From a virus: a stretch of DNA of 41,546 nucleotides. The DNA lies in the IMG/VR virus record IMGVR_UViG_3300035684_000007, positions 1 through 41,546 of that record; one strand, 5' to 3'. Within the stretch, counting starts at the first letter, position 1. Each line of letters starts with the position of its first letter. The position numbers were made by a program, and so were the translations under genes. This document shows positions 10,177 through 30,192 of the stretch, one piece after another. The notes beneath the pieces are model-generated. The model was not told the DNA's origin. It was given only the letters and a program-made list of their open reading frames with translations, and searched no databases.

Positions 10177-11985
10177 ATGCCAAGAGTTCCAGTATACGAC
10201 AGGCAGGCCCAGGTCAAAACGACCGAAGTCGGGACACGGGTCATCAGTAAGCCCCAGCCCATGGGGACCGAAATGGCGGAAGCCGCGGGCCGAGCAGGTG
10301 CCGCCCTGATGAACACAGGCAATGTGCTTGCCCAGCATATGGCCGAGCGCCAGAAGATCGAAGATGAACGCCAAGTCATGGAGCGTGACACGGCCGCCAG
10401 AACCGAGCTTCAAGACCGTCTTTACAAGCAAGATGTCGACGAGAATGGGAGGCCAGTAGGCTTCCTGAATCGCCAGAAGAACCATGCTACCGGATTAACA
10501 CCCGAGTTTGATCAGACCTTCCGCGAGCTGAAGCAGAAGTACGTGGGCTCGCTTGCGAACGATACTCAGAAGCAGCTCTTCTCGAAGATGATCGACAACC
10601 ACTATGAAGGGCTTCGCGGCACAGTAATCCGGCACGAGGCGGAGCAGGGGAGAGAGCTCTTCAAGGAGACGGTTTCCTCCGCAGTCAAGCAGCGCATCTC
10701 CGAGGCCGCGACCATCTCGGATCCAAGCCTCCTTCTGAAAGCGATCGACGACGCCCAGGGGCTTCAGACCGGGGGCCTCAAGCGAATGGGGTCGCAGGAC
10801 GATGTCGTGGGCGCTCACAACCAGGTCCTCGCAGGCGAGCTTGTGAAGTCCTCGTTCGGACCACTCCTGTCTCAAGACTACCGGAAGGCCGAGGCCGTCT
10901 TGAACGCCGCACGCTCCCGGGTCCCGGCCGATGTTGCAGCCGAGATGGACAAGGCGCTCGAAGGTCGGAAGCTTGAGGACGAGAGGGTTTCCACCTGGAA
11001 GCAGGTCGCAGGCCACCGCCTGGCCGACGGAACGCCTGACACGAACCGGATGCAGAACTCCATCTTTGCGCGTGAGGACCTCACGACCGAAAAGAAAGAG
11101 AAGCTCTGGGATTATGTGAAGGTTCGGGCCGCCGAAGAGAACCAGCAGAGAAAACAGCAGGAGGTGGCCACAGACCACTCCTTCAAGAACGAAGTCTTCG
11201 CCGCGAAGAAGGGGGGAGCGAACCTTGATGCTGCCCTAAAGCTTGTCTCCAAGTACGGCGGCGACGAGGTGGCTCAACAAGAGCGCACCGAGATCGTCAA
11301 AGCGCTCTACACCACGAAGACGATCACTGATCCGGTCACCTACAACAAGCTTTGGGAAGGTGTTCAGGAAGGCAAAATGGGGAAAACCGAGCTCAACGTC
11401 GCTTTCGCCCAAGGCAAGATCTCCTCGTCTGATTTCATGGAGCTCACGAAGACTGGCTACAACGCTCTCCATAAGGAAGATGAGTTCTACAAAAAAGAGA
11501 TCATCGACCGCGTGAAGGACCTCGCGCAAACCGAGTACGGATCGAACGAGAAGAAGCGGAATGGTTTCCTCTATTCGGTCCTCATCAGCTCCCGAGGCAA
11601 GACACCTGAGGAGACCTGGAAGATCGCGCAGGACTTGACCAAGAATGACCCGAGCACGGGCGCGTTCTCCTTCACCCAAGATGCCCAGTGGGAGACGAAT
11701 GTGAAGCGTTCGGACGCTCAGAATCTCGTGTGGGGGAAGCTCCACCAGGACATCGGCCAGGACCAGGTGAAGGCTATCGGCCAAAGCGCACTCATGACTG
11801 GGAAGAAGACCTGGGGAGTCTCGGACGTCGAAGAGTTTGCAACTGCCTTGGGCGGCTACGAAAAGCTCAAGAAGGGTACGCCCGAGAACACCGCGATCGA
11901 CTCCCTCGTTCGCAAAAACAAGCAAGTCACCCCTGAGGCCGTCAAAGCGGTTCTCAAAGTACACCCGGACGGAGTCTGGAAATGA
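10177..11985 (+). CDS. Internal virion protein C (T7 gp15-position)
   Basis: The 602-aa, largely helical and charged ORF lies between the gp14-like and gp16-like genes. The assignment rests on synteny only. Confidence 0.5.
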   Translation: MPRVPVYDRQAQVKTTEVGTRVISKPQPMGTEMAEAAGRAGAALMNTGNVLAQHMAERQKIEDERQVMERDTAARTELQDRLYKQDVDENGRPVGFLNRQKNHATGLTPEFDQTFRELKQKYVGSLANDTQKQLFSKMIDNHYEGLRGTVIRHEAEQGRELFKETVSSAVKQRISEAATISDPSLLLKAIDDAQGLQTGGLKRMGSQDDVVGAHNQVLAGELVKSSFGPLLSQDYRKAEAVLNAARSRVPADVAAEMDKALEGRKLEDERVSTWKQVAGHRLADGTPDTNRMQNSIFAREDLTTEKKEKLWDYVKVRAAEENQQRKQQEVATDHSFKNEVFAAKKGGANLDAALKLVSKYGGDEVAQQERTEIVKALYTTKTITDPVTYNKLWEGVQEGKMGKTELNVAFAQGKISSSDFMELTKTGYNALHKEDEFYKKEIIDRVKDLAQTEYGSNEKKRNGFLYSVLISSRGKTPEETWKIAQDLTKNDPSTGAFSFTQDAQWETNVKRSDAQNLVWGKLHQDIGQDQVKAIGQSALMTGKKTWGVSDVEEFATALGGYEKLKKGTPENTAIDSLVRKNKQVTPEAVKAVLKVHPDGVWK

Positions 11986-14900: not shown

Positions 14901-17900
14901 GACTACCAGGCTCACTGGAAGCTCATCGTCGACTACCTGGGGATTGAGGAAGGCCAGACGGCCCTCACTGAGGAGCAACAGGAGCGGTTCGCCCACGGCT
15001 TTGACGACTACCTTCAAAAGGGGGAGGCCCCTTCCGAAGCGCTCAAGCAGGTCTTCACCCGGTTCAGGCGCTGGCTCACTGCAATCTACCGTAGGGTCAA
15101 GCAGGAGAACCTCCCAATCGATCCGCGCGCCAAGGCGATCTTCGACCGCATGCTTGCGACCGAAGACGAGATCCAGGCCGCTGAGGCTTCAGCCGGACGT
15201 GCAAAGCTTCAGGACAAGGTCGAAGGGCTTACTGAGGCAGAGGTGAAGCGCCTCTCGAAGCTCCAGGAGCGGGCCCACGAAGAGGCCATCTCCCTCCTGA
15301 TGAGGCGCCAGCTTGAGGAGCTCAAGGAGGAGCGGAAGGAGTTCCTGGTCCTGAAGCGTACTGAAGCTGAGAAAGAAGCCAAGCAAAAGACCGCAGCGCT
15401 TCCGATCTACAAGATTCAGGACGAGCTAAAGAGAAGGATGAAGACGAGTCAGAGTGCTCGCTCCATTGCGCAAGCCTACTCCAAAGGGAAGCTCACCGAG
15501 GAGCGCCAGGTCCAGTTCGAGCTCCATGCCGAGCTCTCCGGATACTCCTCGGGTGATCACCTGGCAAAAGCCATCCTGGACTCCGAGCGCTTCAGTGACG
15601 TGGTTGCTCAACGCGTCCGAGAAGAGATGGCAACCTATGCCGATCTCAAGGACACGAGCGCCCTTCGGGAAGAGGCTCTAAAGGCCATCCACAACGAACG
15701 CTCCTATGAGCTCATGGCACTTGAAAGCGAGATCCTGGAAAGCCTCGTGAAGGGCGAGGAGACCCGTGCTGAAGCCAAAGCGCGTCGGGTGGAGGAAGCC
15801 AAGATCGAGGCTGCGGCGATTAAGGCCAGGGCCAAGGAGCTTATGTGGAAGCTCAATGTCCGGGGGGCGACCGCCCATGGACCGCTCATCACGAGCGAGC
15901 GTCGCGCGGCCGAAGGGGCTGCCAAGGCTCTCGCCAAGAAGGACTTTGAGCGGGCCGCGGCGCTCAAGCGCCAGCAGATGCTCAACCACGCGCTCGCCCA
16001 AGAGAGCCTCAAGATCAAGGCCAAGGTCGAGAAGTGGACCGACTACCTGAAGGATCTCAGGTCTCGCCACTTGGAGGCCTTCAAGAAGGAAGAGCACTTC
16101 TACCAGGCGGCCGAGATTCTCTCCCACTTGGGTATGGGTCGGAACGATTATGATCCGACTCGCAGGACCGAATCCTTAAGGCAGTGGGCCGAACGGATGG
16201 AGGCGCAGACCAACATCCTAAACATCCCAGACTGGGTCTTCGAAGAGGGCAAAATTCGGGATCACAAGGAGCTCACCGTTTCTGAGCTTCAGGACGTGAT
16301 CAACACGCTCAAGAACATTATGAAGGTTGCCAACTTCGAAGACCGCGCCTTGGTCATCGCTGAGGGTGCCACCATGGAGGATATTAAGACGCGCCTTCGG
16401 ATGGAGTTTGCTCTCTCCCAGCGTGGCAAGGAGCCTCGAGCCCAGCGCATCGGAGCGGCAACTCCTGTGGACCGCATCAAGCGCATGGGTTCAAAGTACC
16501 TGCTTTCACTCATCCGGGTGCAGAACTTGCTCAGGGGCATGCAGGGGTTCCGTGAAAACGGGGCCTTTACCGAGGTGCTCGAAAAGCCTGTGGATGCGGC
16601 TGCCGACCACGAGAGCAAGCTCATGGTGTGGGCTACCGAGGGCCTCAAGAAGGCCTTTAGCATCTACTCCGCGAAGGAGCAGCAAGAGCTCCTGAATCGT
16701 CAGGTCTACCATCCGGAACTGGGGAGCTCAGTCCCCAGGATGACCCTGATCATGATGGCCCTGAACCTCGGGAACGAGGACAACAAGACGAAGCTCTTTG
16801 GGACAAAGCCTGTCGGCGTGCCTGAGGAGATGGAGTGGAACGACATTGTGGGCATGGGGCTCCTCCAAAGGGGTCTCACTGAGAAGGACTGGGAGTTTGT
16901 TCAGTCCGTCTGGGATCTCATCGGGGAGCGCTGGGAGGACATTTCCTCCCTCCATCGCCGCATGACGGGATTTGCGCCAGGGAAGGTCGCAGCCGTGCCC
17001 TTCAACGTGAGGCTTTCGGACGGCAAGGTCCTCACCCTCAAGGGCGGCTACTTCCCGCTTAAGCAGGATCCTCGTGGGAACCGAAAGGCCAACCTTCGCG
17101 AGGCGCTCGATACGCCGCTTTACACGGAGCAGAACCCTGGCTGGAAGGCAGTGACCAAGACGGGCCATACCAAGGAACGAACGGGAGCCCAATACGCAGT
17201 ATCCCTGGATCACTCGATCATCTTCCGCCACCTCCGCGACGTGATTCATGACATCGCCTTTCGCGAGGTCGTCACCGATCTCAGGCGCCTAGTCGCAAGC
17301 GAAGAGGTCGCAGCCATGGTCGTCCAAGCTCATGGCGAAGACGGCTATCAGATCCTGAACGAATGGGTGAACTCGGTTGCAGTCGGCCAGGCTTCGAACG
17401 TGACTGACGTCTTTGGCCAGGCCATTGCGGAACTCAGGAAGAGGACCACTGCCGCCATCCTGACCTGGAGGATCTCGAATATCGTCCAAAACTTCGCAAA
17501 CGTCGCTCTCTATGCCAACGCCGCTGAAGGCTTTGGGCAAAAAGAGGTCTTCTCGGCGATGCTGGGCCGCGGCCTTCCGTACTGGGCGAACTTCTTTGTT
17601 AACCAGGCCGAACACCAGGTCATGAAGAACTTCGTCTTTGAGCGCTCAGCCTTCATGCGCGACAAGCATTCGAACCCGGATTTCTCATTTGCCGAGCTCC
17701 AGGGGAGCGTCTTCCGGGAGCGCGGGCCCATGCGTGAGATTCTGGCCGAGAAGCTTGGCCAAGACTCCAAGGTCGTCGAGGCGCTTGATCTTGCTGCCGA
17801 CAAACATGAAGCTATCCAGGAGTTTGGAAAGGGACTTGCGGCGGGAACGGACGAAGCCACCTCCATCCCAATCTGGGTTCATGCCTACAATCTCGCGCTC

Positions 17901-18596
17901 GATCGAAACTTCGAGCATGAGGAAGCCGTCCAGTACGCAGACTCTGTCATCAAGAACTCCATTGGATCGGGGCGAAAGTATGACGCCCCGTCCATCCAGC
18001 GGGGAGGGGAGACTGCGAAGCTCGTCTCCATGTTCATGACTTTCCTCAATGCCGAGTTCAACCGCTGGTATCTGGAGGCCGGCAAGGCAACCGTTGGGAG
18101 CCGAGGCGCAATCCGTGCTGCTGGAAAGCTTGCCATGAGCCCCAGGTTCCTTGGGTTCCTCGCAAGCCGCATCATCATCTTCAACGTGGCGTCTCTTCTG
18201 ATCTCTGGGAAGGGTCCGGACGAAGGAGAAGACGAACTCAAGTGGTGGCTCAAGCAGGCGGTCTTTTACCCGATTAGCTTCTTTCCGGGCGTTCGGGATG
18301 TGGCTGATGTGGCGCTCGATCAGCTCTTTGGTCTCAGGAGCTTTGGGTATCGTCCATCTGCAGCCGGCGCAGGCATCAATGCCGCAGTCGATTTCGGAAA
18401 GAGCGCCACGAAGTGGAGTGAGGGGAGTGAGGAGTTCTCGCGTGTTGCCGAGTCCTTCACGAAGCTCATGTCCTTTGCAGCCCCCTACCCAGATCAATTC
18501 AACGCTTGGCTCTGGAACGCCCACGACTATGTCACTGATGGGATGAAGCCAGCGCCTCAGGATCTCTATCGTCGCCGCCCTAAGAAAGAGCGGTAA
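11982..18596 (+). CDS. Giant internal virion / DNA-ejection protein (T7 gp16-position) with polyvalent-protein-like insert
   Basis: A single 6.6-kb ORF (2204 aa) starts with an ATGA overlap. It has G/A-rich hydrophobic segments near residues 225-290, an HEFAH zincin motif at 14829-14843 and long E/K/A/R coiled-coil tracts. It sits upstream of the tail fibre. Confidence 0.8.
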   Translation: MSDILNQLPDAVFPAEGQLAQAQVQDPGPSLDSLPDLESPLSQAYRESAKMDPARAAQVMDLAKKINEPEAFVDRNLPELQKAVSAPSSAFWQEYEREHPEAAKFLMDRRNMVVAQDDFDNLGKLESYIKQMSTGLRKGNLEARQAELWAERLAETRKSGVLSSKFDAELQSLSKELEPFAMLDEKVGKGFHPLYQFSAQVPNMTRSLFKFGAGESLSDLPGPALVRGAQGAAAGAAAGAAVGAATGSIALAPGVAIGAGALASTGAANGGRVGAVAGLAEYAYQLEAGNAFREYSAARDVSGASINPQVAADAAHTVGMVNAALETAGDLLLMKVLKPVGKLAGGMASDAAVKALTKIKVPGAEKIASAIAARPEHFAGMTLGKAVREAGKLWALGMVGEISTEFAQEVSTGIGAESAKASSGQTFADGKGMAQILDDATGVIYPTFQAMLIPSGLGGGARVALSVREIKRAEQTKEIYTALGASAEASKVRGRLPEVHRQFVEQVTKGSPVENIFIPAQAFETYFQSKKLDPKEAAAELGVGEDFETARETGGDLKIPLSVFTEKVAGTEHHHGLADDVKFSQETLSVNEAKQTKADAEARVEAEFAKLVEAAPEHEKQQQEYDTLKARVRSEIESAKPREMLPDDEKEYHQQLDAQAELIAKITAIEAFRRSQNGDQVTATQLYDAQRIQWQNEGGALSSSLPSRTLFQKRQDGLSFVKNDEVDQTEHELPMSVAVTTNDQVQPIDIKAPNPALEKVLTARTKRGRYLNEHTKISITVNEDSIGKVLSQGAKFIKRKSDTAFREHLQTLQSIDALVKNAVYLTTKSEKKGRTTEQWLYFFAPLKEGNVESLVKLQVKKEGEKYTLHNIARVRESGRGRAKTLVGQEANSIPAGPLDLLEFSSRVKAARETYTFFQDDQDDAYGRIQFGPNGPIVTLFRKAHASTPVHEFAHAYLKDVFDYVRSHPEKLSADYQAHWKLIVDYLGIEEGQTALTEEQQERFAHGFDDYLQKGEAPSEALKQVFTRFRRWLTAIYRRVKQENLPIDPRAKAIFDRMLATEDEIQAAEASAGRAKLQDKVEGLTEAEVKRLSKLQERAHEEAISLLMRRQLEELKEERKEFLVLKRTEAEKEAKQKTAALPIYKIQDELKRRMKTSQSARSIAQAYSKGKLTEERQVQFELHAELSGYSSGDHLAKAILDSERFSDVVAQRVREEMATYADLKDTSALREEALKAIHNERSYELMALESEILESLVKGEETRAEAKARRVEEAKIEAAAIKARAKELMWKLNVRGATAHGPLITSERRAAEGAAKALAKKDFERAAALKRQQMLNHALAQESLKIKAKVEKWTDYLKDLRSRHLEAFKKEEHFYQAAEILSHLGMGRNDYDPTRRTESLRQWAERMEAQTNILNIPDWVFEEGKIRDHKELTVSELQDVINTLKNIMKVANFEDRALVIAEGATMEDIKTRLRMEFALSQRGKEPRAQRIGAATPVDRIKRMGSKYLLSLIRVQNLLRGMQGFRENGAFTEVLEKPVDAAADHESKLMVWATEGLKKAFSIYSAKEQQELLNRQVYHPELGSSVPRMTLIMMALNLGNEDNKTKLFGTKPVGVPEEMEWNDIVGMGLLQRGLTEKDWEFVQSVWDLIGERWEDISSLHRRMTGFAPGKVAAVPFNVRLSDGKVLTLKGGYFPLKQDPRGNRKANLREALDTPLYTEQNPGWKAVTKTGHTKERTGAQYAVSLDHSIIFRHLRDVIHDIAFREVVTDLRRLVASEEVAAMVVQAHGEDGYQILNEWVNSVAVGQASNVTDVFGQAIAELRKRTTAAILTWRISNIVQNFANVALYANAAEGFGQKEVFSAMLGRGLPYWANFFVNQAEHQVMKNFVFERSAFMRDKHSNPDFSFAELQGSVFRERGPMREILAEKLGQDSKVVEALDLAADKHEAIQEFGKGLAAGTDEATSIPIWVHAYNLALDRNFEHEEAVQYADSVIKNSIGSGRKYDAPSIQRGGETAKLVSMFMTFLNAEFNRWYLEAGKATVGSRGAIRAAGKLAMSPRFLGFLASRIIIFNVASLLISGKGPDEGEDELKWWLKQAVFYPISFFPGVRDVADVALDQLFGLRSFGYRPSAAGAGINAAVDFGKSATKWSEGSEEFSRVAESFTKLMSFAAPYPDQFNAWLWNAHDYVTDGMKPAPQDLYRRRPKKER

Positions 18597-18625: not shown

Positions 18626-20647
18626 ATGACCGTATCAGCAGCAGTTGGCAAGCACGTCTATAATGGCAATGGAGTTACCATCTATTGGCCGTATTCCTTT
18701 CCGATTAGTGAAGGGGATGAGATCAAAGTCCATTTGACTGACGCACTGGGAGTCGTCACCCAGCTCAACTCAGGGTACCACGTCGATGAGGACAATGCTC
18801 GGGTCGTATACCCAGCCTTCGGATCCGGACTGAACCCACTTCCAGTAGGCTCGAAGATCACGCTCCTTCCTGTCACCAAGCTGACCCAGGAGTTGGATCT
18901 CAAGAACCAGGGCCCATTCAATGCGGAGGTACTTGAGAGGGCTTTTGACAAGCTGACCATGATCGCCCAACAGACCAGGGAAGTGCTCTCACGGACAGTG
19001 AAGTACCCGGTTCATGAGACGCCCACGGCGGACGATACCGATGCCTTCTTGACCCGGATTGAGGCTGCCCGTTTTCAGGCCGAAACGGGGGTGAACGCTG
19101 CAGCCACTTCCGCCACCAATGCGGCCACCTCAGCCGCTTCTGCGAGCTTGTCTGCCCTGGATGCGATCTCAAGTGCTACGTCTGCAGCATCGAGCAAGGC
19201 AGATGCGGCCGTAAGCGCAACCGCCGCATCGAGTGCGGCGACCGCGGCTTCAGGGAGTGCAACGTCCGCTGCCAGTTCTGCTGCCGGGGCAAGCGCATCG
19301 GCGACGGCAGCCGCGGGATCCGCGAGTGCTGCGAGCACATCGGCGACAGCTGCTGCGGGGTCCGCGAGTGCCGCTAGTACCTCGGCTACGGCTGCTGCGG
19401 GATCTGCGAGTGCCGCTAGTACCTCGGCTACGGCTGCTGCGGGATCCGCATCTGCTGCGAGCACGAGCCAAACAGCAGCCGCTGCCAGTGCAGCGGCTGC
19501 TGCGACCAGTGCATCAAACGCTTCCGGTGCTGCTTCCACCTATGTGGCAAGCGCGCGCAGTGCAGCCAATGGGATCGGCTCTCTCGGACCAGACGGAAAG
19601 CAGCCGATGAGCGAAGTACCACAGGCTATGCTCGGCGCTAATATCTACCAAGGCGTGTGGAATGCCACAACCAACACGCCGGCCCTTGCCTCGGGTGTAG
19701 GATCAAAAGGGCATTACTACATTGTCAGTGTAGTGGGTGCTACCGCACTTGACGGTGTGACGGACTGGAAGCTTGGCGATTGGGCAATCTTCAACGGTAG
19801 CGTTTGGGAAAAGGTCGATAACACCGATGCCGTGATATCCGTAAATGATAAAACCGGCGCGGTGACTGTCACAGCTGACGACGTAGGGCGGAATACCGCT
19901 CAGTGGAACGCTTCAAAAATACACAGTCGAGATGTCGCATCTACCGCACCGAATAACGGCGAAGCCTTTGTTTGGAACGGACTCGCCTGGGCGCCTGCTC
20001 CAATTGCAAGCGGAGCTGGCATGCCCCCTGTTGGCAGTATCATCGCTTGGACAGGTGGATACTTCACGAGCGGCTCGAACGGAACTTACACGCGTACGCT
20101 AGGTGCCACTAACGACGCTTCCGGTGTGAACGCCTATATCGGTGACTCATGGCGCGTGTGCAACGGAGCTGCGTTCAACGATGCGGCCAGCCCAATTTTC
20201 AACGGCACAGGACGCTACCTGCCAAACATTACTGATAGTCGCTTCCTGATGGGTTCGACAGCTGCTGGCGGCGTAGGCGGAAGCAACACCAATTCGCATA
20301 CTCATGCCGTGCCTGCGCACTATCACGGCAAGGGCACGCTGGCCATCGGAAGCTCCGGCAGTCACGCTCATGACATCAAGACATCCGATGGACAGTTCCC
20401 TGGAGCCACGGCCTACGACTCTGCCTTCAACTATGCAGGAGGAAATGTCCATGGTTTGCTGAAAATCGGAGGCATGGACATGTGGGCAGATTACGCAAGT
20501 CATACTCACGACAACTCGGCATTCAGCGGCGTGGTTGGTAACGGGGCCGGATCGAACGGTGATGCTGCTTTCAACACAGGCGCGGCTAGCGACACCGAGA
20601 ACCGTCCTGCCTATTTATCAATATTTTACATCATTCGTGTGAAGTGA
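18626..20647 (+). CDS. Tail fibre / receptor-binding protein
   Basis: The N-terminal fibre-attachment pattern is present (Y.GNG....W.Y.F.I....I.V.L.D..G....L...Y.V........V.....LTQ..DL.N.G.F.AE.LE.AFDKLTM..Q). It also has an A/S/T repeat shaft, the motif G.WNATTNTPAL.SG.G..G.YY.VS..G and a tail-collar-type C-terminus ending ENRPAYLSIFYIIR. Confidence 0.85.
   Translation: MTVSAAVGKHVYNGNGVTIYWPYSFPISEGDEIKVHLTDALGVVTQLNSGYHVDEDNARVVYPAFGSGLNPLPVGSKITLLPVTKLTQELDLKNQGPFNAEVLERAFDKLTMIAQQTREVLSRTVKYPVHETPTADDTDAFLTRIEAARFQAETGVNAAATSATNAATSAASASLSALDAISSATSAASSKADAAVSATAASSAATAASGSATSAASSAAGASASATAAAGSASAASTSATAAAGSASAASTSATAAAGSASAASTSATAAAGSASAASTSQTAAAASAAAAATSASNASGAASTYVASARSAANGIGSLGPDGKQPMSEVPQAMLGANIYQGVWNATTNTPALASGVGSKGHYYIVSVVGATALDGVTDWKLGDWAIFNGSVWEKVDNTDAVISVNDKTGAVTVTADDVGRNTAQWNASKIHSRDVASTAPNNGEAFVWNGLAWAPAPIASGAGMPPVGSIIAWTGGYFTSGSNGTYTRTLGATNDASGVNAYIGDSWRVCNGAAFNDAASPIFNGTGRYLPNITDSRFLMGSTAAGGVGGSNTNSHTHAVPAHYHGKGTLAIGSSGSHAHDIKTSDGQFPGATAYDSAFNYAGGNVHGLLKIGGMDMWADYASHTHDNSAFSGVVGNGAGSNGDAAFNTGAASDTENRPAYLSIFYIIRVK
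19301..19468 (+). repeat. Four in-frame imperfect 42-bp tandem repeats encoding ATAAAGSASAASTS
   Basis: The units read directly as 19301-19342, 19343-19384, 19385-19426 and 19427-19468. They are embedded in a longer Ala/Ser/Thr low-complexity shaft. Confidence 0.9.
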
Positions 20648-20657
20648 GGAGCTAATC

Positions 20658-20903
20658 ATGACCTACACCGTTAAGTACAAAAAGGTGGGCTCTTGGGTGT
20701 CGAAGACCTTGAGGAATGTAAAGGGTGACGGCTTCGTTGAACATGGCAATAGCCGCTTCTTCGTTCTGAGTGACGAGTCTCGTGTAGAGGTTCCAACGGC
20801 TGGGATGGAGTTCTGTTTTAGTAAGGACCGTTTCATCGCAATTCGCAAGGCGATGGAGGTCCAGACTGGGCATCCGATTTCCACTAACTCAGGCGTGAGC
20901 TGA
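20658..20903 (+). CDS. Hypothetical protein downstream of the tail fibre
   Basis: The 81-aa ORF has a GAGGAG ribosome-binding site upstream and is more AT-rich than the virion genes. No family was recognised. Confidence 0.45.
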   Translation: MTYTVKYKKVGSWVSKTLRNVKGDGFVEHGNSRFFVLSDESRVEVPTAGMEFCFSKDRFIAIRKAMEVQTGHPISTNSGVS

Positions 20904-21406
20904 TGCCCAAATTACCTTCCAAAATACTACTGGTATTGCTGGTGGTGATCTTAAGCCACTCCGAGGTCACGCTCGCTGACCCCACGATCTCTGTTGGAAT
21001 CGGCAAGGGTGCCTTCGGCAAGAGCGGCACTGCCTTCGAGCGTGCCGCCGCTTTGGGTTACGAACACACATTCCCCATCGGAGTCTTTGTCCGGCCTGAA
21101 CTGGGCTGGTTCATGGACATCTCAGGTCATGGGAAGTCATCTGTGTTCGCGGCCCCCCTAGTTGGGGTTCGTTCTGGATCTCGCGTGGGTCCCGAGGTCC
21201 ATCTCGCGATGGGACCTGGGTACCTTCAGAACCCTGATGAGGTTCTGGGTGGCCACTTCCAATTCAGCCTTGAAGGGGGGATTGCTATGCGTGACGAGAA
21301 CTTCTCAATCGGCGTCGTCTGGAAACACTTGTCGAGCGCCGGCTTCAATATGCCGAATCGGGGTCGTGATTTCATCACGGCTCAGGTCCGGGTGCACGCC
21401 TTCTGA
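20903..21406 (+). CDS. pagL: PagL-like lipid A 3-O-deacylase / acyloxyacyl hydrolase, outer-membrane beta-barrel
   Basis: It has a signal peptide (MPKLPSKILLVLLVVILSHSEVTLA). The block VVWKHLSSAGFNMPNRG matches the catalytic PagL block (H-x-S-N-A-G-L-x-x-P-N-x-G), and the protein ends in Phe (RVHAF) as outer-membrane proteins typically do. Confidence 0.75.
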   Translation: MPKLPSKILLVLLVVILSHSEVTLADPTISVGIGKGAFGKSGTAFERAAALGYEHTFPIGVFVRPELGWFMDISGHGKSSVFAAPLVGVRSGSRVGPEVHLAMGPGYLQNPDEVLGGHFQFSLEGGIAMRDENFSIGVVWKHLSSAGFNMPNRGRDFITAQVRVHAF

Positions 21407-21417
21407 TTGGAGTTGTT

Positions 21418-21849
21418 GTGAGTGACCGTGACTTTCAAATCTTTCTCGCCCTCGGCCCGTTGCTTGGGATGGCCTTATTGGGATTCTTCGCACGCGCGAT
21501 CGGCCGGAAGATCGACGGCTGGGACAAAAGTATTCAACAGAATACGGAAGCACTTACCTGCTTGAGGGAGAACCTGGTTGAAACTAAGTCCCAAGTTGCA
21601 GTTCAGGGGACCAAGATTGAGGCCACGAACAATCGGTTCGACTCGGTGGAGCGCGATATCCAGCGCGCCATTCTTGAACTTCGAACCGTGCAAGCGCGGA
21701 ACAATGACGACATCGAGGTTCTCGGCGATCGAACCCATGGGCTGACCAATGCAGTCCTCACACTCTGGGGGATGGCAAAGCACGAAGGGTGGAAGATGCC
21801 CACCGAGCAGCCCGAGATTACGTCACGGATAAGAGTGAAGAGTCATTAG
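21418..21849 (+). CDS. Membrane-anchored coiled-coil protein (i-spanin-like topology)
   Basis: It has a GTG start and an N-terminal transmembrane segment (IFLALGPLLGMALLGFFARAI), followed by about 100 aa of predicted coiled coil. It lies in the lysis region. Confidence 0.45.
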   Translation: MSDRDFQIFLALGPLLGMALLGFFARAIGRKIDGWDKSIQQNTEALTCLRENLVETKSQVAVQGTKIEATNNRFDSVERDIQRAILELRTVQARNNDDIEVLGDRTHGLTNAVLTLWGMAKHEGWKMPTEQPEITSRIRVKSH

Positions 21850-21891
21850 AGATTTCTCCGCACGAAGCGGAGGAAAACAGAGGAGAGAGAG

Positions 21892-22137
21892 ATGGAACTA
21901 GAAGCGATTGTTCAGCAGCTGACTGCAGGTTCTCCGGTCATTTCAGTAGGGCTCATGATCATGGGCACTCTTGTAATGACCGCAACGGTCGTCGTGAAGC
22001 TTACGAAGAGTGACAAGGACGACCAGGCCCTGGCCAGGATCCGGGCACACGGCGTGGCCGGCCCGATCCTTCGATTCCTGGAGCGCTTCTCGGTGATCGT
22101 GCCGAAGGCGGCCCTGGAGCAGCTGAAGGCTCAGTAA
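21892..22137 (+). CDS. Single-TM small membrane protein (holin candidate)
   Basis: The 81-aa ORF has a GGAGAGAGAG ribosome-binding site and one hydrophobic span (PVISVGLMIMGTLVMTATVVV), followed by a charged C-terminus. Confidence 0.45.
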   Translation: MELEAIVQQLTAGSPVISVGLMIMGTLVMTATVVVKLTKSDKDDQALARIRAHGVAGPILRFLERFSVIVPKAALEQLKAQ

Positions 22138-22186
22138 CTTCCTCACGGAGCGGCGGGATGGGAGACCTTCCCGCCGACACCTCTCA

Positions 22187-22423
22187 ATGTTTACCTCACT
22201 CGCCAATGCTTTAGCCTTTGCCCTGTCGATCTGGAATCACGAGCAGAAGACCTTGTTCCAGCGACAGCTTATGGATTTGAAACGGAAGTATTATGAAGAG
22301 CAGAATAAGCCTGCCGATCGCCGCGATGATGCTGTCCTTGATCATCTTGAATTTGAGCTGCGCCTCCTTTGCGACAGTCTCTGTTCCGGACTTAGCCAAC
22401 CGAACTCTCCGGATCAGCCCTGA
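22187..22423 (+). CDS. Hypothetical small protein with weakly hydrophobic N-terminus and helical charged tail
   Basis: The 78-aa ORF overlaps 22293..22586 out of frame. Whether it is coding is uncertain. Confidence 0.35.
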   Translation: MFTSLANALAFALSIWNHEQKTLFQRQLMDLKRKYYEEQNKPADRRDDAVLDHLEFELRLLCDSLCSGLSQPNSPDQP

Positions 22424-22586
22424 CTTCGCCGGCTTTGAGTACCAGTATGAGGTTTGTCTCAAGGAGGTCCTTTGGATTTGCGTCCGTCGCGAGATGCGAA
22501 AGGAGACGTTCGATTTGAACGATCTGGAGACGCGAAAAATGCTGATCGCCATGGGATTTGTTGCCCGCGTTCGGGAGAGGCCATGA
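22293..22586 (+). CDS. Putative secreted protein or lipoprotein (o-spanin-like position)
   Basis: It has the signal sequence MKSRISLPIAAMMLSLIILNLSC with a Cys after the hydrophobic core, but the lipobox is non-canonical. It starts inside the preceding ORF. Confidence 0.4.
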   Translation: MKSRISLPIAAMMLSLIILNLSCASFATVSVPDLANRTLRISPDFAGFEYQYEVCLKEVLWICVRREMRKETFDLNDLETRKMLIAMGFVARVRERP

Positions 22587-22649
22587 TGGAACAGCTCAGT
22601 GGTCTGGCATGTGCGTTGCTCAACGGGCATGACCCAAAAGAATCACGTG

Positions 22650-23180
22650 ATGGCTGAAAAGTGGAAAGTGGTCCCTGGATTCCCCGATTACGAGGTTTCC
22701 ACGCTGGGACGATTGAGATCGATCCGGCGGAGACGCGGAGTAAAGCTTAGAGTCGCCAAGGGATGGGTTGTTCGAAAACCTGGCTATCCCATGGCGATAA
22801 AAGTCGGCCTTCGACGGGACGGCAGAACCTTTGAGTTTCGACTTCACCGTCTGATTCTGATGACCTTTGTAGGACCCTGCCCGAAAGGCATGGAAGCTTG
22901 CCACAATGACGGGAATCCGCTGAACAATCGACTGGAAAACCTTCGTTGGGATACTCATTCGGCGAACATGCAAGATTGCATTCGCCATGGAAAGAAGCGC
23001 AAGCCGCCGGTACACTATGGAGAGAGACATCCGAATACCGTTCTGACAACAGCGGACGTCAAGGCAATTCGTTCAACACCGATTGTCCATGGGGCTCGGA
23101 TTCGGCTGGCTCGAATATTTGGAGTTAGCCTGCCAACGATATGCAGGATTTTGAGAAGGGAAGTTTGGAGGCATGTCTGA
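22650..23180 (+). CDS. HNH homing endonuclease (NUMOD4 + HNH_3 type)
   Basis: It shows MAEKWKVVPGFPDYEVSTLGRLRS, then CHNDGNPLNNRLENLRWDTHSANMQD and a C-terminal HTH. I chose the ATG at 22650 over the tracked GTG at 22599. Confidence 0.85.
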   Translation: MAEKWKVVPGFPDYEVSTLGRLRSIRRRRGVKLRVAKGWVVRKPGYPMAIKVGLRRDGRTFEFRLHRLILMTFVGPCPKGMEACHNDGNPLNNRLENLRWDTHSANMQDCIRHGKKRKPPVHYGERHPNTVLTTADVKAIRSTPIVHGARIRLARIFGVSLPTICRILRREVWRHV

Positions 23181-23595
23181 CCGCTTGACGGATCTACTTA
23201 TCCGTCACGAAGGACTGAGGCTGAAAGTATATACCTGCTCGGCAGGTAAGCCCACAATTGGAGTAGGGCGCAATCTTCAGGACGTCGGCATATCAAAAGA
23301 GGAGGCCCTCGCGATGCTGGCCGCGGATCTCTCCCGCGTCCGATCGGAGGCCTCCCAGGCCTTCCCTTGGTTCAAGGGTCTGGATCCGGTTCGTCAAGAC
23401 ATCGTGCTTTCGATGGTCTTCAATCTGGGCCTTGCGGGCTTACGCGGATTCCGCGGGATGATCGCTGCTCTCGAGCGCCACGACTACCGGGGGGCCGCAC
23501 GGGAAATGCTCGACTCCCGCTGGGCCGGCCAGGTGGGATACCGTGCACGCGAACTCGCCACCATGATGATTACCGCCAAGTACCCTCCGGGCTGA
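23173..23595 (+). CDS. Endolysin, GH24 (T4-lysozyme-like) muramidase
   Basis: The motif LLIRHEGLRLKVYTCSAGKPTIGVGRNL carries the catalytic Glu, followed by the D/T motif spacing. No signal or SAR segment is present. Confidence 0.9.
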   Translation: MSDRLTDLLIRHEGLRLKVYTCSAGKPTIGVGRNLQDVGISKEEALAMLAADLSRVRSEASQAFPWFKGLDPVRQDIVLSMVFNLGLAGLRGFRGMIAALERHDYRGAAREMLDSRWAGQVGYRARELATMMITAKYPPG

Positions 23596-23972: not shown

Positions 23973-24722
23973 TCATTCCAATGGCGTTGCCAGCATGAGG
24001 TGAATGTTCCAAAGGGAGAACTCTTCGGAATCCGAATAACCATTGGCCATGTTCTCCCGATTGAATGCTGAGAGTTTTTCGTAGATCGAATACAAGAGAG
24101 CGTCGATTTGCATGATCTGGGAAGGAGTGTACCGATCAATAGCCAGGTAACAAAATCGTTTGGCTCGGTATGCGGGATCTGAGATTTTCTCGAGGTATCG
24201 ATCGGCCGAGAGTGTGGCAAGTTTATGATGCGTCTGGAGCGTTCTCTTGACGTCGCTCTTGTTGTAGCTCCGATTAATGTGTTTCTGAATGTACTGGTTT
24301 CCGCGTTTGGCCAATACCCCTACGTGGTAAAGCTCGTCGAGCGCGATTCGAATTGCTCGCGCGGGATAGCCCTGCTTCGAAAAAGTCTCAACTGTGATTT
24401 CTTTGGTCGCAGCGGAATACGCCAGCAGATGGATCTCAGACTTGTAGACTGTAGCTTCGACTTCGGGTGGCATGGTCACAAGCTCCGTCATTGAAGCCTC
24501 CGCCGCAGCGATGATCTGCGCTGGCTTCACAGCGAGGCGCTGAGCAAGCCTCAGGAGCTGCTCAACTGTCAGGCGGGATTTTCCATTAAGGAGTCGTGAG
24601 GCCTGAGGTTGATTCACTCCGAGAATTTCACCAACTTCCTTTCGTGAGAGGCCTTCCTCCTTGATCCTCCGATTTAGTTCAGCCAGGAGTGCATCGTAGT
24701 AGTTTGACAGATAATCCTTCAT
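23973..24722 (-). CDS. XRE-type HTH protein with DUF4423/TIGR02147-like C-terminal domain
   Basis: The HTH reads LSRKEVGEILGVNQPQASRLLNGKSRLTVEQLLRLAQRL. The roughly 170-aa C-terminal region has the layout I recall for TIGR02147. The start is ambiguous, with a GTG at 24773 also possible. Confidence 0.6.
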   Translation of the reverse strand: MKDYLSNYYDALLAELNRRIKEEGLSRKEVGEILGVNQPQASRLLNGKSRLTVEQLLRLAQRLAVKPAQIIAAAEASMTELVTMPPEVEATVYKSEIHLLAYSAATKEITVETFSKQGYPARAIRIALDELYHVGVLAKRGNQYIQKHINRSYNKSDVKRTLQTHHKLATLSADRYLEKISDPAYRAKRFCYLAIDRYTPSQIMQIDALLYSIYEKLSAFNRENMANGYSDSEEFSLWNIHLMLATPLE

Positions 24723-24833
24723 GCCGAGATAACATAGCATGCATCTGATGTATGGGTAGTGCGATATAATCACTTGACCGCTGAACGGGACATAAGTAAA
24801 CCCTGTCGAATTCAGGGGGGACTTATTTTGAAG

Positions 24834-28696: not shown

Positions 28697-28966
28697 ATGA
28701 GACTTCAAGCTGAAGTGAATCTTGACCCAGGGAGGGCTCAAGTGGAGACCGCGAAAGGCACGGTTCAGAAGTTACTCTATACGACGGAGGAGATCTCGGA
28801 GGCTACCGGAGTACCAGTTGAAACTTATGTCTGGTGGCGGCAGATAAACGAAGGTCCACCCTACGTGAAGCTGGGTCGAAACGTCCGTTATTCGCTCAAG
28901 GCGGTCATGCAGTACATCGAGCGCAAGACGCATGATCCTGCGCGAGGTATGAGAAGGAAAAAATGA
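28697..28966 (+). CDS. xis: Excisionase / AlpA-MerR-type HTH DNA-binding protein
   Basis: It shows LLYTTEEISEATGVPVETYVWWRQINEGPPYVKLGRNVRYSLKAVMQYIE, the excisionase-family HTH layout. Its stop overlaps the integrase start. Confidence 0.6.
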   Translation: MRLQAEVNLDPGRAQVETAKGTVQKLLYTTEEISEATGVPVETYVWWRQINEGPPYVKLGRNVRYSLKAVMQYIERKTHDPARGMRRKK

Positions 28967-30192
28967 ACTCTAAGAAGAGAAGGCGCTCCTCGAGGCGGCA
29001 AAGTGAGAACCGCTCCAAGGATTACATCCACCTCTTCAAGTATCCGAAGCGTTCGCGCTTCTGGGTTTATCGCCGCTTCTCTGGGGAGAAGGGCGAGGAG
29101 TTCTACTATTCCACTGGCGAGGAAACAAGCGAGAGGCTTGCTGACGACATCGGAGGCAAGGCCTACCATGAGTGGCTGGGCTTGGAGGCTAAGCCTGAGG
29201 CGGGCGATGGGACTGAGGTAGGAATTCCGACCTTCGGGCCGTTTGCTCAGGCTTACTACAACGATAAGGAAAAGCGGCCGGAACACGACTTCTCGCGGAA
29301 ATCAAAACTCAATTCCAGACGAGCAACGGAGCAACTGATTGAGGCCTTCGGTCACCTCACGATCGACCAGGTCACCGCTGAACGAGTAAAGAGCTGGTGC
29401 AACGAGCGCTTTGCCGAAAAGCCTCAGAAGTTCTTCAACCGGCTCAAAGAGCTTCGCGAGATCTTAGGTGCTGCTCACAGGGCAGGGCATATCCGCGTGT
29501 TGCCGAAGATAGCGAATCCTGACAAGCCTGCCGAGGAAGGGCAATGGTTTGAGGATGAGATTGTCGAACGGCTGCTTGTAGTGGCGAGTCCCACGCTAAA
29601 TCTGCTGATCGATACCATGTGGCGGCAGGGTCCCCGTCCGGCTGAGGCCCTTCAATACCGCTTTTCCATGATCCGCTGGGATGAGGGAGCGCACGGACAG
29701 ATCCATATCCCCGGAGAGATCACGAAGACCCGCAGGGGCCGAGTTATCCCACTCAACTCCGTGATTAGTGCGAGGTGGCAAGCGATCCAGGATCACTCGG
29801 AGTGCGACTGGATTTTCGAGTCACCGAACTTCCCAGGAGAGCGGGTGACGTCCTACCGGGATAGCTGGGAGCGGACCCGGGACCGGGCTATTTCGATCCT
29901 CCGGGCCGAAGTGGATATCCTTAGGGCCTACGGTCGCGGCCTGGTCGAGCAAGGGCTTATGGACGCCGAGACGCGCGCGAATGCGCGCAAGCGTGAGTCA
30001 AAGCTTTCTTCCTTCATCCGGAAGCTTGAGAACGGGGTCCTCTATGACCTCCGTGCCACTTTTGTGACGAACAAAGCCAAGAAGGGCGACCCTATTCTGA
30101 TGGTCGCGAAGTACATCGATTCGTCGATCAAAATGATCGAGCCTTTCTATGCCAAGGTTGAAGCTCACATGCTGGAGGACATCGCCGAATGA
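28963..30192 (+). CDS. int: Tyrosine integrase
   Basis: The 409-aa ORF has box I (RPAEALQYRFSMI), a later LYDLRATFVTN and a C-terminal KYIDSSIKMIEPFYAK with the presumed catalytic Tyr. It is adjacent to attP. Confidence 0.85.
   Translation: MNSKKRRRSSRRQSENRSKDYIHLFKYPKRSRFWVYRRFSGEKGEEFYYSTGEETSERLADDIGGKAYHEWLGLEAKPEAGDGTEVGIPTFGPFAQAYYNDKEKRPEHDFSRKSKLNSRRATEQLIEAFGHLTIDQVTAERVKSWCNERFAEKPQKFFNRLKELREILGAAHRAGHIRVLPKIANPDKPAEEGQWFEDEIVERLLVVASPTLNLLIDTMWRQGPRPAEALQYRFSMIRWDEGAHGQIHIPGEITKTRRGRVIPLNSVISARWQAIQDHSECDWIFESPNFPGERVTSYRDSWERTRDRAISILRAEVDILRAYGRGLVEQGLMDAETRANARKRESKLSSFIRKLENGVLYDLRATFVTNKAKKGDPILMVAKYIDSSIKMIEPFYAKVEAHMLEDIAE

What the first reader, a model, noticed from the sequence alone, without database searches (positions are those of the whole stretch)
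20903..21406. Phage-encoded PagL-like lipid A deacylase in the moron slot between tail fibre and lysis genes
What is seen: the 167-aa ORF has a clear Sec signal peptide, alternating beta-strand-like composition and a terminal Phe, which together suggest an outer-membrane barrel. The block W-K-H(142)-L-S(144)-S-A-G-F-N-M-P-N-R-G lines up with the catalytic His/Ser block of Pseudomonas PagL as I remember it (I-H-Y-S-N-A-G-L-K-Q-P-N-D-G). Upstream segments also align (FQFSLEGGIAM..NFSIGV versus FEDRIGAGLKF..GQSVGV). Its start overlaps the stop of the upstream small ORF (TGATG). It sits where lysogenic-conversion morons usually sit. Inference: a temperate phage that remodels lipid A, rather than O-antigen, could change outer-membrane charge and packing. 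That could affect superinfection by other phages, antimicrobial-peptide sensitivity or innate immune recognition. It could alternatively act late to weaken the outer membrane at lysis. I am not aware of a characterised phage PagL.
Basis: partly seen in the sequence, partly recalled or inferred. Interest (0 to 1): 0.7.

Follow-up and report, generated by a model that had tools for sequence, protein, structure and literature searches.

The report
Phage-encoded PagL-like lipid A deacylase
A temperate, epsilon15-like phage carries, welded into its late tail-fibre/lysis operon, a gene for an outer-membrane enzyme of the PagL family that strips a fatty acid from lipid A; it belongs to a sizeable, undescribed clade found so far only on phage-like contigs, which suggests that phages remodel the lipid anchor of LPS and not only its sugars.

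Summary
ORF 20903-21406 (167 aa) has a signal peptide, eight predicted beta-strands and a terminal Phe, and its start overlaps the upstream stop. It passes Pfam PagL (34.9 bits against a 23-bit cut-off). Profile-profile comparison with canonical Pseudomonas PagL gives 95.7% probability. Its best PDB fold match is PagL 2erv. H142, S144 and D156 are invariant in 29 homologues and align with the catalytic His126/Ser128/Glu140.

The window is a near-complete epsilon15-like temperate podovirus. Close homologues (49-72% identity) lie in at least six unrelated phage backbones. They almost always sit directly behind the distal tail-fibre gene, abutting or overlapping it, and upstream of lysis genes. 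None is on a contig longer than 176 kb, whereas canonical PagL lies on Mb-scale chromosomes. No member was found in PHROGs, in 50,697 GenBank phages or in the searchable literature.

The "moron" reading is only half right. The slot is a variable accessory slot; epsilon15 keeps its O-antigen conversion genes there. But this gene has no promoter, no terminator and no compositional anomaly, and it reads straight into the lysis genes. Late lytic expression is therefore favoured.

Activity, substrate and purpose are untested. The purpose could be progeny protection or exclusion, lysis assistance, or lysogenic conversion.

The parts
18626..20647 (+). Tail-fibre gene (673 aa). Its N-terminal tail-attachment domain is shared with other epsilon15-like phages. 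It contains an Ala/Ser-rich 42-nt x4 tandem repeat at 19292-19464.
   Evidence: PHROG tail-fibre and tail families, E down to 1e-22. The N-domain is 46-55% identical to the fibres of L040-L043. Tandem repeat.
20658..20903 (+). orf81 (81 aa), unknown function. It starts 10 nt after the tail-fibre stop, and its own stop overlaps the PagL start by 1 nt.
   Evidence: No Pfam, NCBIfam, PHROG or PADLOC hit. The gene is also called in the NCBI contig.
20903..21406 (+). PagL-family outer-membrane esterase (167 aa), a predicted lipid A 3-O-deacylase.
   Evidence: Pfam PF09411, 34.9 bits against a 23-bit cut-off. hhalign against canonical PagL: 95.7%. AF2 model pLDDT 90.8 with 8 strands. Foldseek top hit is 2erv.
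20903..20977 (+). Sec signal peptide (aa 1-25, cleavage TLA|D).
   Evidence: Hydrophobic segment. Helix 6-23 in the model. The A-x-A|D motif is conserved in the family.
21326..21370 (+). Catalytic block, H142-L-S144-S-A-G-F-N-M-P-N-R-G-R-D156. H142 and S144 lie at the end of strand 7, then comes a loop, and D156 lies at the start of strand 8.
   Evidence: K141, H142, L143, S144, S145, G154, R155 and D156 are invariant in 29 sequences. They align to H126/S128/E140 of 2erv. The motif is present in about 180 of 200 family sequences.
21418..21849 (+). orf143: an N-terminal TM helix plus a long coiled-coil-like domain. It is a candidate i-spanin or T4-T-like holin. It starts 11 nt after the PagL stop.
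   Evidence: TM at residues 5-29. Only weak family hits. No terminator-like structure at the junction, z = 0.0.
21892..22137 (+). orf81b: a small single-TM protein, holin-like.
   Evidence: TM at residues 10-38. phrog_402 at 7e-5, function unknown.
22293..22586 (+). orf97: a signal peptide ending in LNLSC. It is a possible lipoprotein and o-spanin candidate; the lipobox is weak.
   Evidence: The gene is called in the NCBI contig.
22599..23180 (+). HNH homing endonuclease inserted in the lysis region; a compositional outlier.
   Evidence: phrog_1492 at 3e-44. GC 0.524 and CAI 0.54.
23173..23595 (+). Endolysin (T4-lysozyme-like).
   Evidence: phrog_7 at 1e-23.
23973..24773 (-). HTH repressor-like regulator; a marker of temperate lifestyle.
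   Evidence: phrog_1373 and phrog_8.
28963..30192 (+). Tyrosine integrase; a marker of temperate lifestyle.
   Evidence: phrog_1 at 2.5e-23.

Best explanation
The gene encodes a Sec-exported 8-stranded outer-membrane beta-barrel serine esterase of the PagL family. Insertion by the BAM machinery is inferred. The catalytic residues are H142 and S144, with D156 in place of the canonical Glu.

By homology, the enzyme hydrolyses an ester-linked (3-O) hydroxyacyl chain of lipid A in the outer leaflet of the host outer membrane.

In this epsilon15-like temperate podovirus the gene is translationally coupled into the late tail-fibre -> orf81 -> PagL -> lysis-gene string. It is therefore most probably made together with virion and lysis proteins during lytic growth, and it remodels the LPS of the doomed cell.

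What is shown: family membership, fold, motif conservation, phage context and recurrent synteny.

What is inferred, with my probabilities:
- Substrate is lipid A: about 0.6.
- Timing is late: about 0.65.
- Purpose:
  (a) about 0.35: altering LPS so that debris and vesicles no longer capture or trigger progeny virions, or so that competing phages are excluded. This would be analogous to receptor-modifying genes that sit beside receptor-binding-protein genes.
  (b) about 0.30: loosening or curving the outer membrane to help the last step of lysis.
  (c) about 0.20: conversion of the lysogen's envelope.
  (d) about 0.15: something else.
For: Identity:
- Pfam PagL above the gathering score.
- All 29 aligned homologues hit PF09411 and nothing else.
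- hhalign against canonical Pseudomonas PagL gives 95.7% probability, E = 9e-9, over 132 columns.
- The only PDB sequence hit is 2erv, with the His, Ser and acid columns in register.
- The AF2 model has pLDDT 90.8 and shows a signal helix plus 8 strands.
- Foldseek's top PDB hit is PagL 2erv, E = 8e-6, TM 0.62-0.68, ahead of NspA, OprF, OmpX and OmpA.
- H142, S144 and D156 are invariant, and the motif is present in about 180 of 200 family sequences.

Phage context:
- The window contains portal, protease, major capsid protein, tail tube, fibre, endolysin, integrase, repressor and terminase genes.
- The portal is 43-45% identical to those of epsilon15 and DC33.

Recurrent synteny behind a distal tail or fibre gene, with gaps from -4 to +18 nt, in podovirus-like, Mu-like and contractile-tail backbones: L001, L007, L008, L033, L036, L037, L038, L039. 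A holin or endolysin lies immediately downstream in L001 and L036.

Late-operon embedding:
- 1-nt overlap upstream and an 11-nt gap downstream.
- No promoter-like or terminator-like site.
- The junction fold has z = 0.0.
- GC and codon usage match the phage.

Known PagL effects that make (a) and (b) plausible:
- Active PagL, but not the H163A/S165A mutant, increases vesiculation, and deacylated lipid A is proposed to destabilise and bend the outer membrane (PMC4958258).
Against: - No enzymology has been done. Sequence identity to the characterised PagL is only about 17-23%, so the substrate could differ.
- The promoter scan is a sigma-70 consensus scan on an unknown host, so an internal promoter active in lysogens cannot be excluded.
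- In L005 the homologue is a lone gene on the opposite strand, which is moron-like.
- Several carriers are temperate: the window, L033 and L029.
- Against purpose (a): the upstream fibres are mostly unrelated to each other, so PagL is not tied to one receptor specificity. No evidence exists that 3-O-deacylation affects phage adsorption.
- Against purpose (b): spanin-like candidates exist in the window and in other loci. These are a TM plus coiled-coil protein and lipobox proteins. PagL therefore does not obviously replace a missing spanin.
Confidence: 0.6

Rival explanations
1. Classical lysogenic-conversion moron. PagL would be expressed from the prophage and would deacylate the lysogen's lipid A. 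That would change membrane charge or packing, vesicle production, peptide sensitivity or susceptibility to other phages, to the benefit of the lysogen.
For: - The phage is temperate, and other carriers have integrases.
- The equivalent slot in epsilon15 holds its LPS serotype-conversion genes.
- Presence of PagL is variable among related backbones.
- L005 has the gene as an independently oriented unit.
- A related phage, L043, carries another outer-membrane barrel as an opposite-strand gene.
Against: - In the window and in most close homologues the gene overlaps or abuts the tail-fibre gene and the following lysis-region gene.
- No terminator or promoter was detected.
- Read-through from any upstream promoter would express holin and lysis genes in the lysogen.
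- There is no compositional anomaly.
- Distant relatives sit in replication or early-type modules of phages with their own polymerase, primase or RecA, which suggests lytic-cycle roles.
Confidence: 0.2
2. Lysis accessory. Late-made PagL would thin and curve the outer leaflet, giving fewer acyl chains per lipid A. The outer membrane would then fail or vesiculate more readily once the endolysin has removed the peptidoglycan. In this reading PagL acts alongside spanins, or partly in their place.
For: - Adjacent to lysis genes in the window, L001, L005, L013 and L036.
- Late-operon coupling.
- PagL activity increases vesiculation, and deacylated lipid A is proposed to destabilise the outer membrane (PMC4958258).
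- The link is independent of fibre type.
Against: - In L037, L038 and L029 the gene sits among fibre genes, not lysis genes.
- Spanin-like candidates co-occur.
- Removing one acyl chain is a mild perturbation in bacteria that do it naturally.
- No precedent exists for an enzymatic outer-membrane lysis factor of this kind.
Confidence: 0.3
3. A PagL-fold esterase with a different substrate, such as outer-leaflet phospholipid, another lipid A ester position or a lipoprotein. Alternatively, an outer-membrane barrel used structurally, as a receptor mask or adhesin like lambda Lom, rather than catalytically.
For: - Identity to the characterised PagL is low (17-23%).
- The acid residue is Asp, not Glu.
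- The clade is separated from cellular PagLs by a large score gap.
- Many phages carry generic 8-stranded outer-membrane barrels.
Against: - The strict invariance of His, Ser and Asp and of the P-N-x-G-R-D loop across sequences 24-72% identical argues for catalysis.
- The whole active-site block aligns with that of PagL.
- There is no Ail/Lom or OMP_b-brl Pfam hit.
Confidence: 0.12

Closest known systems
PagL lipid A 3-O-deacylase (P. aeruginosa PA4661, PDB 2erv; Salmonella PagL; Pfam PF09411)
   Same: - Same Pfam family, with a match above threshold.
- Same 8-stranded outer-membrane barrel.
- Same H-x-S-[SN]-A-G...P-N-x-G active-site block at the end of strand 7 and the start of strand 8.
- A signal peptide and a C-terminal aromatic residue.

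   Different: - Only about 17-23% identity.
- The acid residue is Asp156 instead of Glu140.
- Encoded on phage genomes rather than chromosomes. Canonical relatives lie on contigs up to 7.1 Mb, whereas this clade never exceeds 176 kb.
- Embedded in a late structural/lysis operon rather than under PhoPQ-type control.
- Activity is untested.
Epsilon15 / P22 / Sf6-type LPS serotype-conversion genes (O-antigen polymerase and inhibitor, Gtr, Oac)
   Same: - Phage-encoded LPS-modifying functions placed next to the tailspike or tail-fibre gene of a temperate podovirus.
- In epsilon15 they occupy exactly the fibre -> [slot] -> lysis position.
   Different: - Those genes act on the O-antigen from the inner membrane.
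- They are transcribed independently; in epsilon15 they lie on the opposite strand after a terminator.
- They are expressed in lysogens.
- This gene targets the lipid A anchor from within the outer membrane and is co-oriented and coupled to late genes.
Lambda Lom / Bor and other phage outer-membrane-protein morons (own knowledge); L043 OMP_b-brl gene
   Same: A small outer-membrane beta-barrel encoded beside tail-fibre genes of a temperate phage.
   Different: - Lom belongs to the non-enzymatic Ail/OmpX family and has its own expression in lysogens.
- This protein has no Ail/Lom hit and carries a conserved hydrolase triad.
Receptor-blocking and progeny-protecting genes linked to receptor-binding-protein genes (T5 Llp; Cor of phi80/N15/T1) (own knowledge)
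   Same: Genetic linkage to the fibre or receptor-binding gene, with action at the outer membrane of the infected cell.
   Different: - Those are lipoproteins that bind a specific protein receptor.
- Here an enzyme would act on a generic lipid, and the associated fibres are diverse.
Spanins and disruptin (phiKT gp28), the outer-membrane step of phage lysis (own knowledge)
   Same: Late expression next to holin and endolysin genes, with the outer membrane as target.
   Different: - There is no sequence or architectural similarity.
- PagL is an integral barrel enzyme.
- Spanin-like candidates co-occur.

Membership tests
PagL (PF09411) lipid A 3-O-deacylase | Significant match to the family profile above the curated threshold | tested here: met
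   34.9 bits against a gathering score of 23, E = 1.9e-8. 29 of 29 homologues match PF09411 only. hhalign against canonical Pseudomonas PagL: 95.7%, E = 9e-9, 132 columns.
PagL (PF09411) lipid A 3-O-deacylase | Eight-stranded antiparallel outer-membrane beta-barrel | tested here: met
   AF2 pLDDT 90.8, pTM 0.79, 8 strands after the signal helix. Foldseek top PDB hits are 2erv_B and 2erv_A, E = 8e-6, TM 0.59-0.68.
PagL (PF09411) lipid A 3-O-deacylase | Export to the outer membrane (signal peptide, C-terminal beta-signal) | tested here: met
   Signal peptide with a conserved A-x-A|D site and a terminal Phe, or a hydrophobic residue in homologues. Localisation itself is inferred.
PagL (PF09411) lipid A 3-O-deacylase | Catalytic His and Ser in an H-x-S motif (His126/Ser128 in P. 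aeruginosa; H163/S165 essential in Salmonella, PMC4958258) | tested here: met
   H142 and S144 are invariant in 29 sequences and aligned to the catalytic pair. The motif is present in about 180 of 200 family sequences.
PagL (PF09411) lipid A 3-O-deacylase | Acidic third triad residue on the neighbouring strand (Glu140 in P. aeruginosa; own knowledge of Rutten et al. 2006, paper not held) | tested here: inconclusive
   The aligned position is Asp156. It is invariant in the close clade and is Asp in 162 of 181 motif-bearing sequences. The chemistry is conserved but the residue differs. Spatial juxtaposition could not be measured because no coordinates were available.
PagL (PF09411) lipid A 3-O-deacylase | Removes the 3-O-linked hydroxyacyl chain of lipid A | not testable with these tools
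   Needs expression and lipid A mass spectrometry.
Lysogenic-conversion moron | Carried by a temperate phage, with variable presence among relatives | tested here: met
   Integrase and repressor are present. Absent from DC33, epsilon15 and L040-L043, which share the backbone.
Lysogenic-conversion moron | Autonomous transcription unit (own promoter and terminator) that allows expression from the prophage | tested here: not met
   1-nt overlap upstream and an 11-nt gap downstream. No promoter-like or terminator-like site. Junction fold z = 0.0. The promoter test has low power because the host is unknown.
Lysogenic-conversion moron | Atypical base composition relative to the phage | tested here: not met
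   GC 0.569 against 0.568 for the genome. GC3 and codon adaptation are like those of neighbouring genes.
Ail/Lom/OmpX-type phage outer-membrane barrel | Match to Ail_Lom or OMP_b-brl profiles | tested here: not met
   PF09411 is the only Pfam hit at E <= 1. OmpX and Ail are lower-ranked fold hits.
Spanin / disruptin (outer-membrane step of lysis) | Spanin architecture (lipoprotein o-spanin, TM coiled-coil i-spanin) or a cationic amphipathic peptide | tested here: not met
   The protein is a beta-barrel with a Sec signal and no lipobox. A functional role in lysis was not testable.

The most novel reading that the evidence does not exclude
PagL-like outer-membrane esterases would form a widespread clade restricted to phages. 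The profile search finds 503 clusters at 50% identity with E <= 1e-3, and every context inspected was phage-like. The gene would move as a cassette between unrelated tailed phages, always landing behind the distal tail-fibre gene. It would constitute a previously unrecognised, enzymatic late-infection function: remodelling lipid A of the dying cell, either to complete outer-membrane disruption or to stop LPS-bearing debris from capturing or triggering progeny. That would make it the first lipid-A-directed phage enzyme and an addition to the holin/endolysin/spanin picture.
Probability: 0.3. Interest if true: 0.8.

Novelty: new variant of a known kind. Interest (0 to 1): 0.62.

Why it matters
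Known phage-encoded LPS modification concerns the O-antigen. An enzyme aimed at lipid A itself, conserved in many uncultured phages and wired into the late operon, would add a new way in which phages manipulate the Gram-negative envelope. It could bear on several things:
- how the outer membrane is breached at lysis;
- how progeny avoid being wasted on debris and vesicles;
- superinfection exclusion;
- vesicle production.

For applications, it bears on the endotoxin structure released by phage lysis.

It is cheaply testable by heterologous expression, lipid A MALDI-TOF and triad mutants. The family profile (alignments A1 and A3) can be used to annotate a gene family that PHROGs and NCBIfam currently miss.

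Tried and rejected
- NCBIfam, PHROGs and PADLOC gave no hit for the protein.
- Direct phmmer against the PDB was weak on its own: 2erv at E = 0.37, or 0.023 with the profile. Profile-profile comparison and fold search were needed.
- tblastn of four divergent family members against 50,697 GenBank phages found nothing. Megablast of the genome found nothing.
- The genome-contig scan found one weak, short MAG contig. IMG/VR gave 3 distant loci. The metagenome scan gave 16 loci, mostly short. These scans are motif-seeded, so absence is weak evidence.
- Host identification failed. There is no tRNA (aside), there are no host flanks, and the nearest cultured relatives share only about 45% portal identity and span Limnohabitans, Cobetia, Salmonella and others.
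- Hypothesis that PagL co-transfers with one receptor-binding domain: only L001, L007 and L036 share fibre C-terminal segments, and the window's fibre is unrelated. Rejected as a general rule.
- Hypothesis that PagL replaces missing spanins: not supported. A TM plus coiled-coil protein and lipobox candidates are present in the window, L001, L007 and L033.
- Hypothesis of recent acquisition with anomalous composition: rejected.
- Literature searches for a phage PagL returned only author-name artefacts or unrelated co-mentions.
- The P. aeruginosa PagL structure paper is not held.
Full report
OBSERVATION. The product begins with a typical Sec signal, MPKLPSKILLVLLVVILSHSEVTLA|DPT (hydropathy peak). 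It ends in Phe. Its ATG shares one base with the TGA of the preceding 81-aa ORF, in the sequence gcTGATGccc. WKH(142)LS(144)SAGFNMPNRGRD(156) aligns to AIH(126)YS(128)NAGLKQPNDGIE(140), and FQFSLEGGIAM..FSIGV aligns to LNFEDRIGAGLKF..QSVGV.

FAMILY. Pfam PF09411 (PagL) is the only hit. It scores 34.9 bits against a gathering score of 23, with E = 1.9e-8. NCBIfam, PHROGs and PADLOC have nothing. A homologue search returned 51 proteins at 34-72% identity, 50 of them with a precomputed PF09411 hit. In an alignment of 29 of them, K141, H142, L143, S144, S145, G154, R155, D156 and the LGGxFQF block are invariant, and all 29 hit PF09411 and nothing else.

As a stronger membership test I retrieved canonical Pseudomonas PagL relatives, using the 2erv segment printed as the query. 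I aligned 16 of them and ran hhalign against the phage-type alignment. The result was 95.7% probability, E = 9e-9, over 132 columns that span the barrel, with the His, Ser, Pro-Asn and acid columns in register.

AlphaFold2 on the family alignment gives a confident model (pLDDT 90.8, pTM 0.79). It has a signal helix at residues 6-23 followed by exactly eight strands. H142 and S144 lie at the end of strand 7, and D156 at the start of strand 8. Foldseek against the PDB ranks PagL 2erv first (E = 8e-6, TM 0.59-0.68), ahead of the generic 8-stranded barrels NspA, OprF, OmpX and OmpA.

Two limits remain. I could not measure the triad geometry, because coordinates are not exposed. The acid residue is Asp rather than the Glu of P. 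aeruginosa PagL. It is Asp in 162 of 181 motif-bearing family sequences.

WHAT THE WINDOW IS. The window is a near-complete genome of a temperate podovirus. On the + strand it carries:
- the C-terminal half of TerL (101-853)
- portal
- protease
- major head protein
- tail tubular proteins A and B
- a lysozyme-like internal protein
- a 2204-aa protein
- the tail fibre
- orf81
- PagL
- three small membrane or secreted proteins
- an HNH endonuclease
- a T4-lysozyme-like endolysin

After these come a repressor on the - strand, an integrase, TerS, and the N-terminal half of TerL, which runs off the end of the window. The identical gene lies on a 42,059-bp metagenomic contig in GCA_034691665.1. The portal is 43-45% identical to those of Limnohabitans phage DC33, epsilon15, SPN1S and relatives. 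No GenBank phage matches at the DNA level. The host is unknown: there is no tRNA and no host flank.

A PHAGE-BORNE CLADE. Contexts of the close homologues are all phage-like, and they belong to different backbones.
- L001: a Collar-domain fibre, then PagL, then a Phage_holin_4_1 holin.
- L008: a Mu-like baseplate, a 792-aa protein, then PagL after a 1-nt gap.
- L007: a 713-aa protein, then PagL.
- L033-L035: temperate. The stop of a 743-aa PTL_trimer protein overlaps the PagL start, and the next gene overlaps PagL by 4 nt.
- L036: contractile tail, with DNA polymerase A. A 680-aa protein, then PagL, then a 1-TM protein, then an endolysin.
- L037: a collagen-like fibre overlaps PagL by 4 nt, and more fibre genes follow.
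- L038: P22-type portal. PagL sits among fibre-like genes.
- L039: the closest relative on a long contig, at 71% identity, yet in a contractile-tail phage. PagL overlaps the stop of a 1200-aa protein.
- L005: the exception. PagL is a lone gene on the opposite strand, convergent with an M15 endolysin.

The junction sequences are listed.

An exhaustive profile search finds 503 clusters at 50% identity with E <= 1e-3, and 315 with E <= 1e-10. Two distant representatives that I could inspect also sit in phage-like neighbourhoods, with Toprim, UvrD, RNA ligase, RecA, SbcCD-like, SLT and M15 genes. Other distant members lie beside a DNA polymerase, a peptide deformylase, or a tail fibre with an integrase nearby.

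A census with a broad profile shows a clean gap. All clade members (>= 117 bits) are on contigs of at most 176 kb. The first protein on a Mb-scale contig appears only at 47 bits. In the same database, canonical PagL relatives sit on contigs up to 7.1 Mb and carry names such as 'acyloxyacyl hydrolase' or 'lipid A 3-O-deacylase'. A motif-seeded scan of 185,579 species-representative genomes found a single weak hit on a 2.9-kb MAG contig. Four divergent queries found nothing in 50,697 GenBank phages. The viral structure library returned only generically named outer-membrane barrels. I found no paper that describes a phage PagL.

IS IT A MORON? Partly.

The slot is a genuine accessory hot spot. 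In epsilon15 the tail fibre is followed by a terminator. Then come the O-antigen conversion genes, a polymerase-type protein and the alpha-polymerase inhibitor, both on the opposite strand. The lysis cassette, attP and int follow. Four IMG/VR contigs share the giant protein and the fibre N-domain of the window phage but lack PagL. One has a reverse transcriptase right after the fibre. Another has an OMP_b-brl barrel on the opposite strand after the lysis genes. DC33 has other small genes at this position.

But the PagL gene itself is not an autonomous unit.
- Its start overlaps orf81, which starts 10 nt after the fibre gene.
- The next gene starts 11 nt after the PagL stop.
- No promoter-like or terminator-like site lies near it, and the counts do not exceed those in shuffled sequence.
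- The junction folds no better than shuffled sequence, z = 0.0.
- Its GC (0.569 against 0.568 for the genome), GC3 and codon adaptation are those of its neighbours. The HNH gene, by contrast, is a clear outlier.

Because nothing can stop transcription between PagL and the membrane and lysis genes, constitutive expression in a lysogen would read into the lysis region. I therefore favour expression with the late genes (about 0.65). The caveat is that the promoter scan has little power for an unknown host.

HOW IT MOST LIKELY WORKS. The protein is exported by Sec. Its insertion into the outer membrane by BAM is inferred. There the His-Ser-Asp site, at the outer-leaflet end of strands 7 and 8, hydrolyses an ester-linked acyl chain of lipid A. 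This is inferred by homology; I put the probability that the substrate is lipid A at about 0.6.

Experimentally, active PagL, but not the H163A/S165A mutant, increases vesiculation in Salmonella, and deacylated lipid A is proposed to destabilise and bend the outer membrane (PMC4958258). [quoted passage not shown]

For a late-expressed enzyme, two benefits are plausible.
(a) Changing LPS so that debris and vesicles no longer trap or trigger progeny, or so that competitors are excluded. This fits the constant linkage to the fibre gene and the precedent of receptor-modifying genes beside receptor-binding-protein genes. Against it, the associated fibres are mostly unrelated, and no effect of 3-O-deacylation on adsorption is known.
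(b) Weakening the outer membrane to help the last step of lysis. This fits the adjacency to holins and endolysins and the independence from fibre type. Against it, spanin-like candidates co-occur, and some copies sit among fibre genes only.

Lysogenic conversion remains possible (about 0.2), especially for the L005-type arrangement.

COMPARISON AND NOVELTY. The protein works like PagL and passes every membership feature that could be tested, with one variation (Asp for Glu) and one feature unmeasured (triad geometry). It differs from known PagLs in three ways:
- It forms a distinct clade that has so far been seen only on phage-like contigs.
- It moves between unrelated phages while keeping its place behind the distal tail gene.
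- It is wired into a late operon.

It differs from known phage LPS-conversion systems in targeting the lipid anchor from within the outer membrane.

I rate it a new variant of a known kind, with interest 0.62. The finding is solid at the level of identity and context, it is not recorded in the databases and literature I could search, and it is directly testable. Its activity and its purpose are still inferences.

Noticed in passing
window 22599-23180: An HNH homing-endonuclease gene is inserted inside the lysis region and overlaps the endolysin start (23173). It is the compositional outlier of the region, with GC 0.524 and codon adaptation 0.54 against about 0.57 and 0.63-0.75 for other genes. 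It is probably a mobile intruder.
   Followed up: partly
window 19292-19464 (within tail fibre 18626-20647): A 42-nt tandem repeat, 4.1 copies at 84% match, encodes an Ala/Ser-rich repeat (AAAGSASAASTSAT) in the shaft of the tail fibre.
   Followed up: no
window 11982-18596: A 2204-aa virion-module protein carries LPD22 and LPD3 ('large polyvalent protein') domains. Equivalents of 1981-2334 aa precede the fibre in the related contigs L040-L043.
   Followed up: no
window 21418-22586: The lysis region is unconventional. It contains a 143-aa protein with an N-terminal TM helix and a coiled-coil-like domain (i-spanin-like or T4-T-like holin), an 81-aa single-TM protein (phrog_402), and a 97-aa secreted protein with a weak lipobox (LNLSC). 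The 97-aa ORF overlaps an alternative 78-aa ORF (22187-22423). No canonical Rz/Rz1 pair follows the endolysin.
   Followed up: partly
L016 (PQ492659.1, Limnohabitans phage DC33): The GenBank taxonomy line files this 39-kb phage under Tubulavirales/Inoviridae. Yet it encodes an epsilon15-type portal (45% identical to the window's) and a podovirus-like gene order. This is an apparent misclassification.
   Followed up: no
L040 10553-11587: A related epsilon15-like viral contig has a reverse transcriptase (RVT_1, 1.9e-18) about 320 nt downstream of the tail-fibre gene, after a 70-aa ORF. This suggests a diversity-generating retroelement aimed at the fibre, in the slot that holds PagL in the window.
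   Followed up: no
L043 11874-12545 (- strand): Another related contig carries a 222-aa OMP_b-brl outer-membrane barrel gene on the opposite strand just after its lysis genes. It is a different, moron-like outer-membrane protein in the same neighbourhood.
   Followed up: partly
L007 10001-10606 (P0047): This PagL homologue has an aberrant, Arg/His-rich C-terminus from the P-N position onward and has lost its Pfam hit. This is probably a frameshift, from either an assembly error or a decaying copy.
   Followed up: no
L001 11007-12031; L008 11437-11808; L033 11239-11896: Downstream of PagL, several unrelated phages share a conserved protein of about 120-175 aa of unknown function (motif ...AEQIF.DLVW...). 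In L001 and L033 it is followed by a lipobox lipoprotein (for example LSAC in L033). This is possibly an undescribed lysis or spanin-type module.
   Followed up: no
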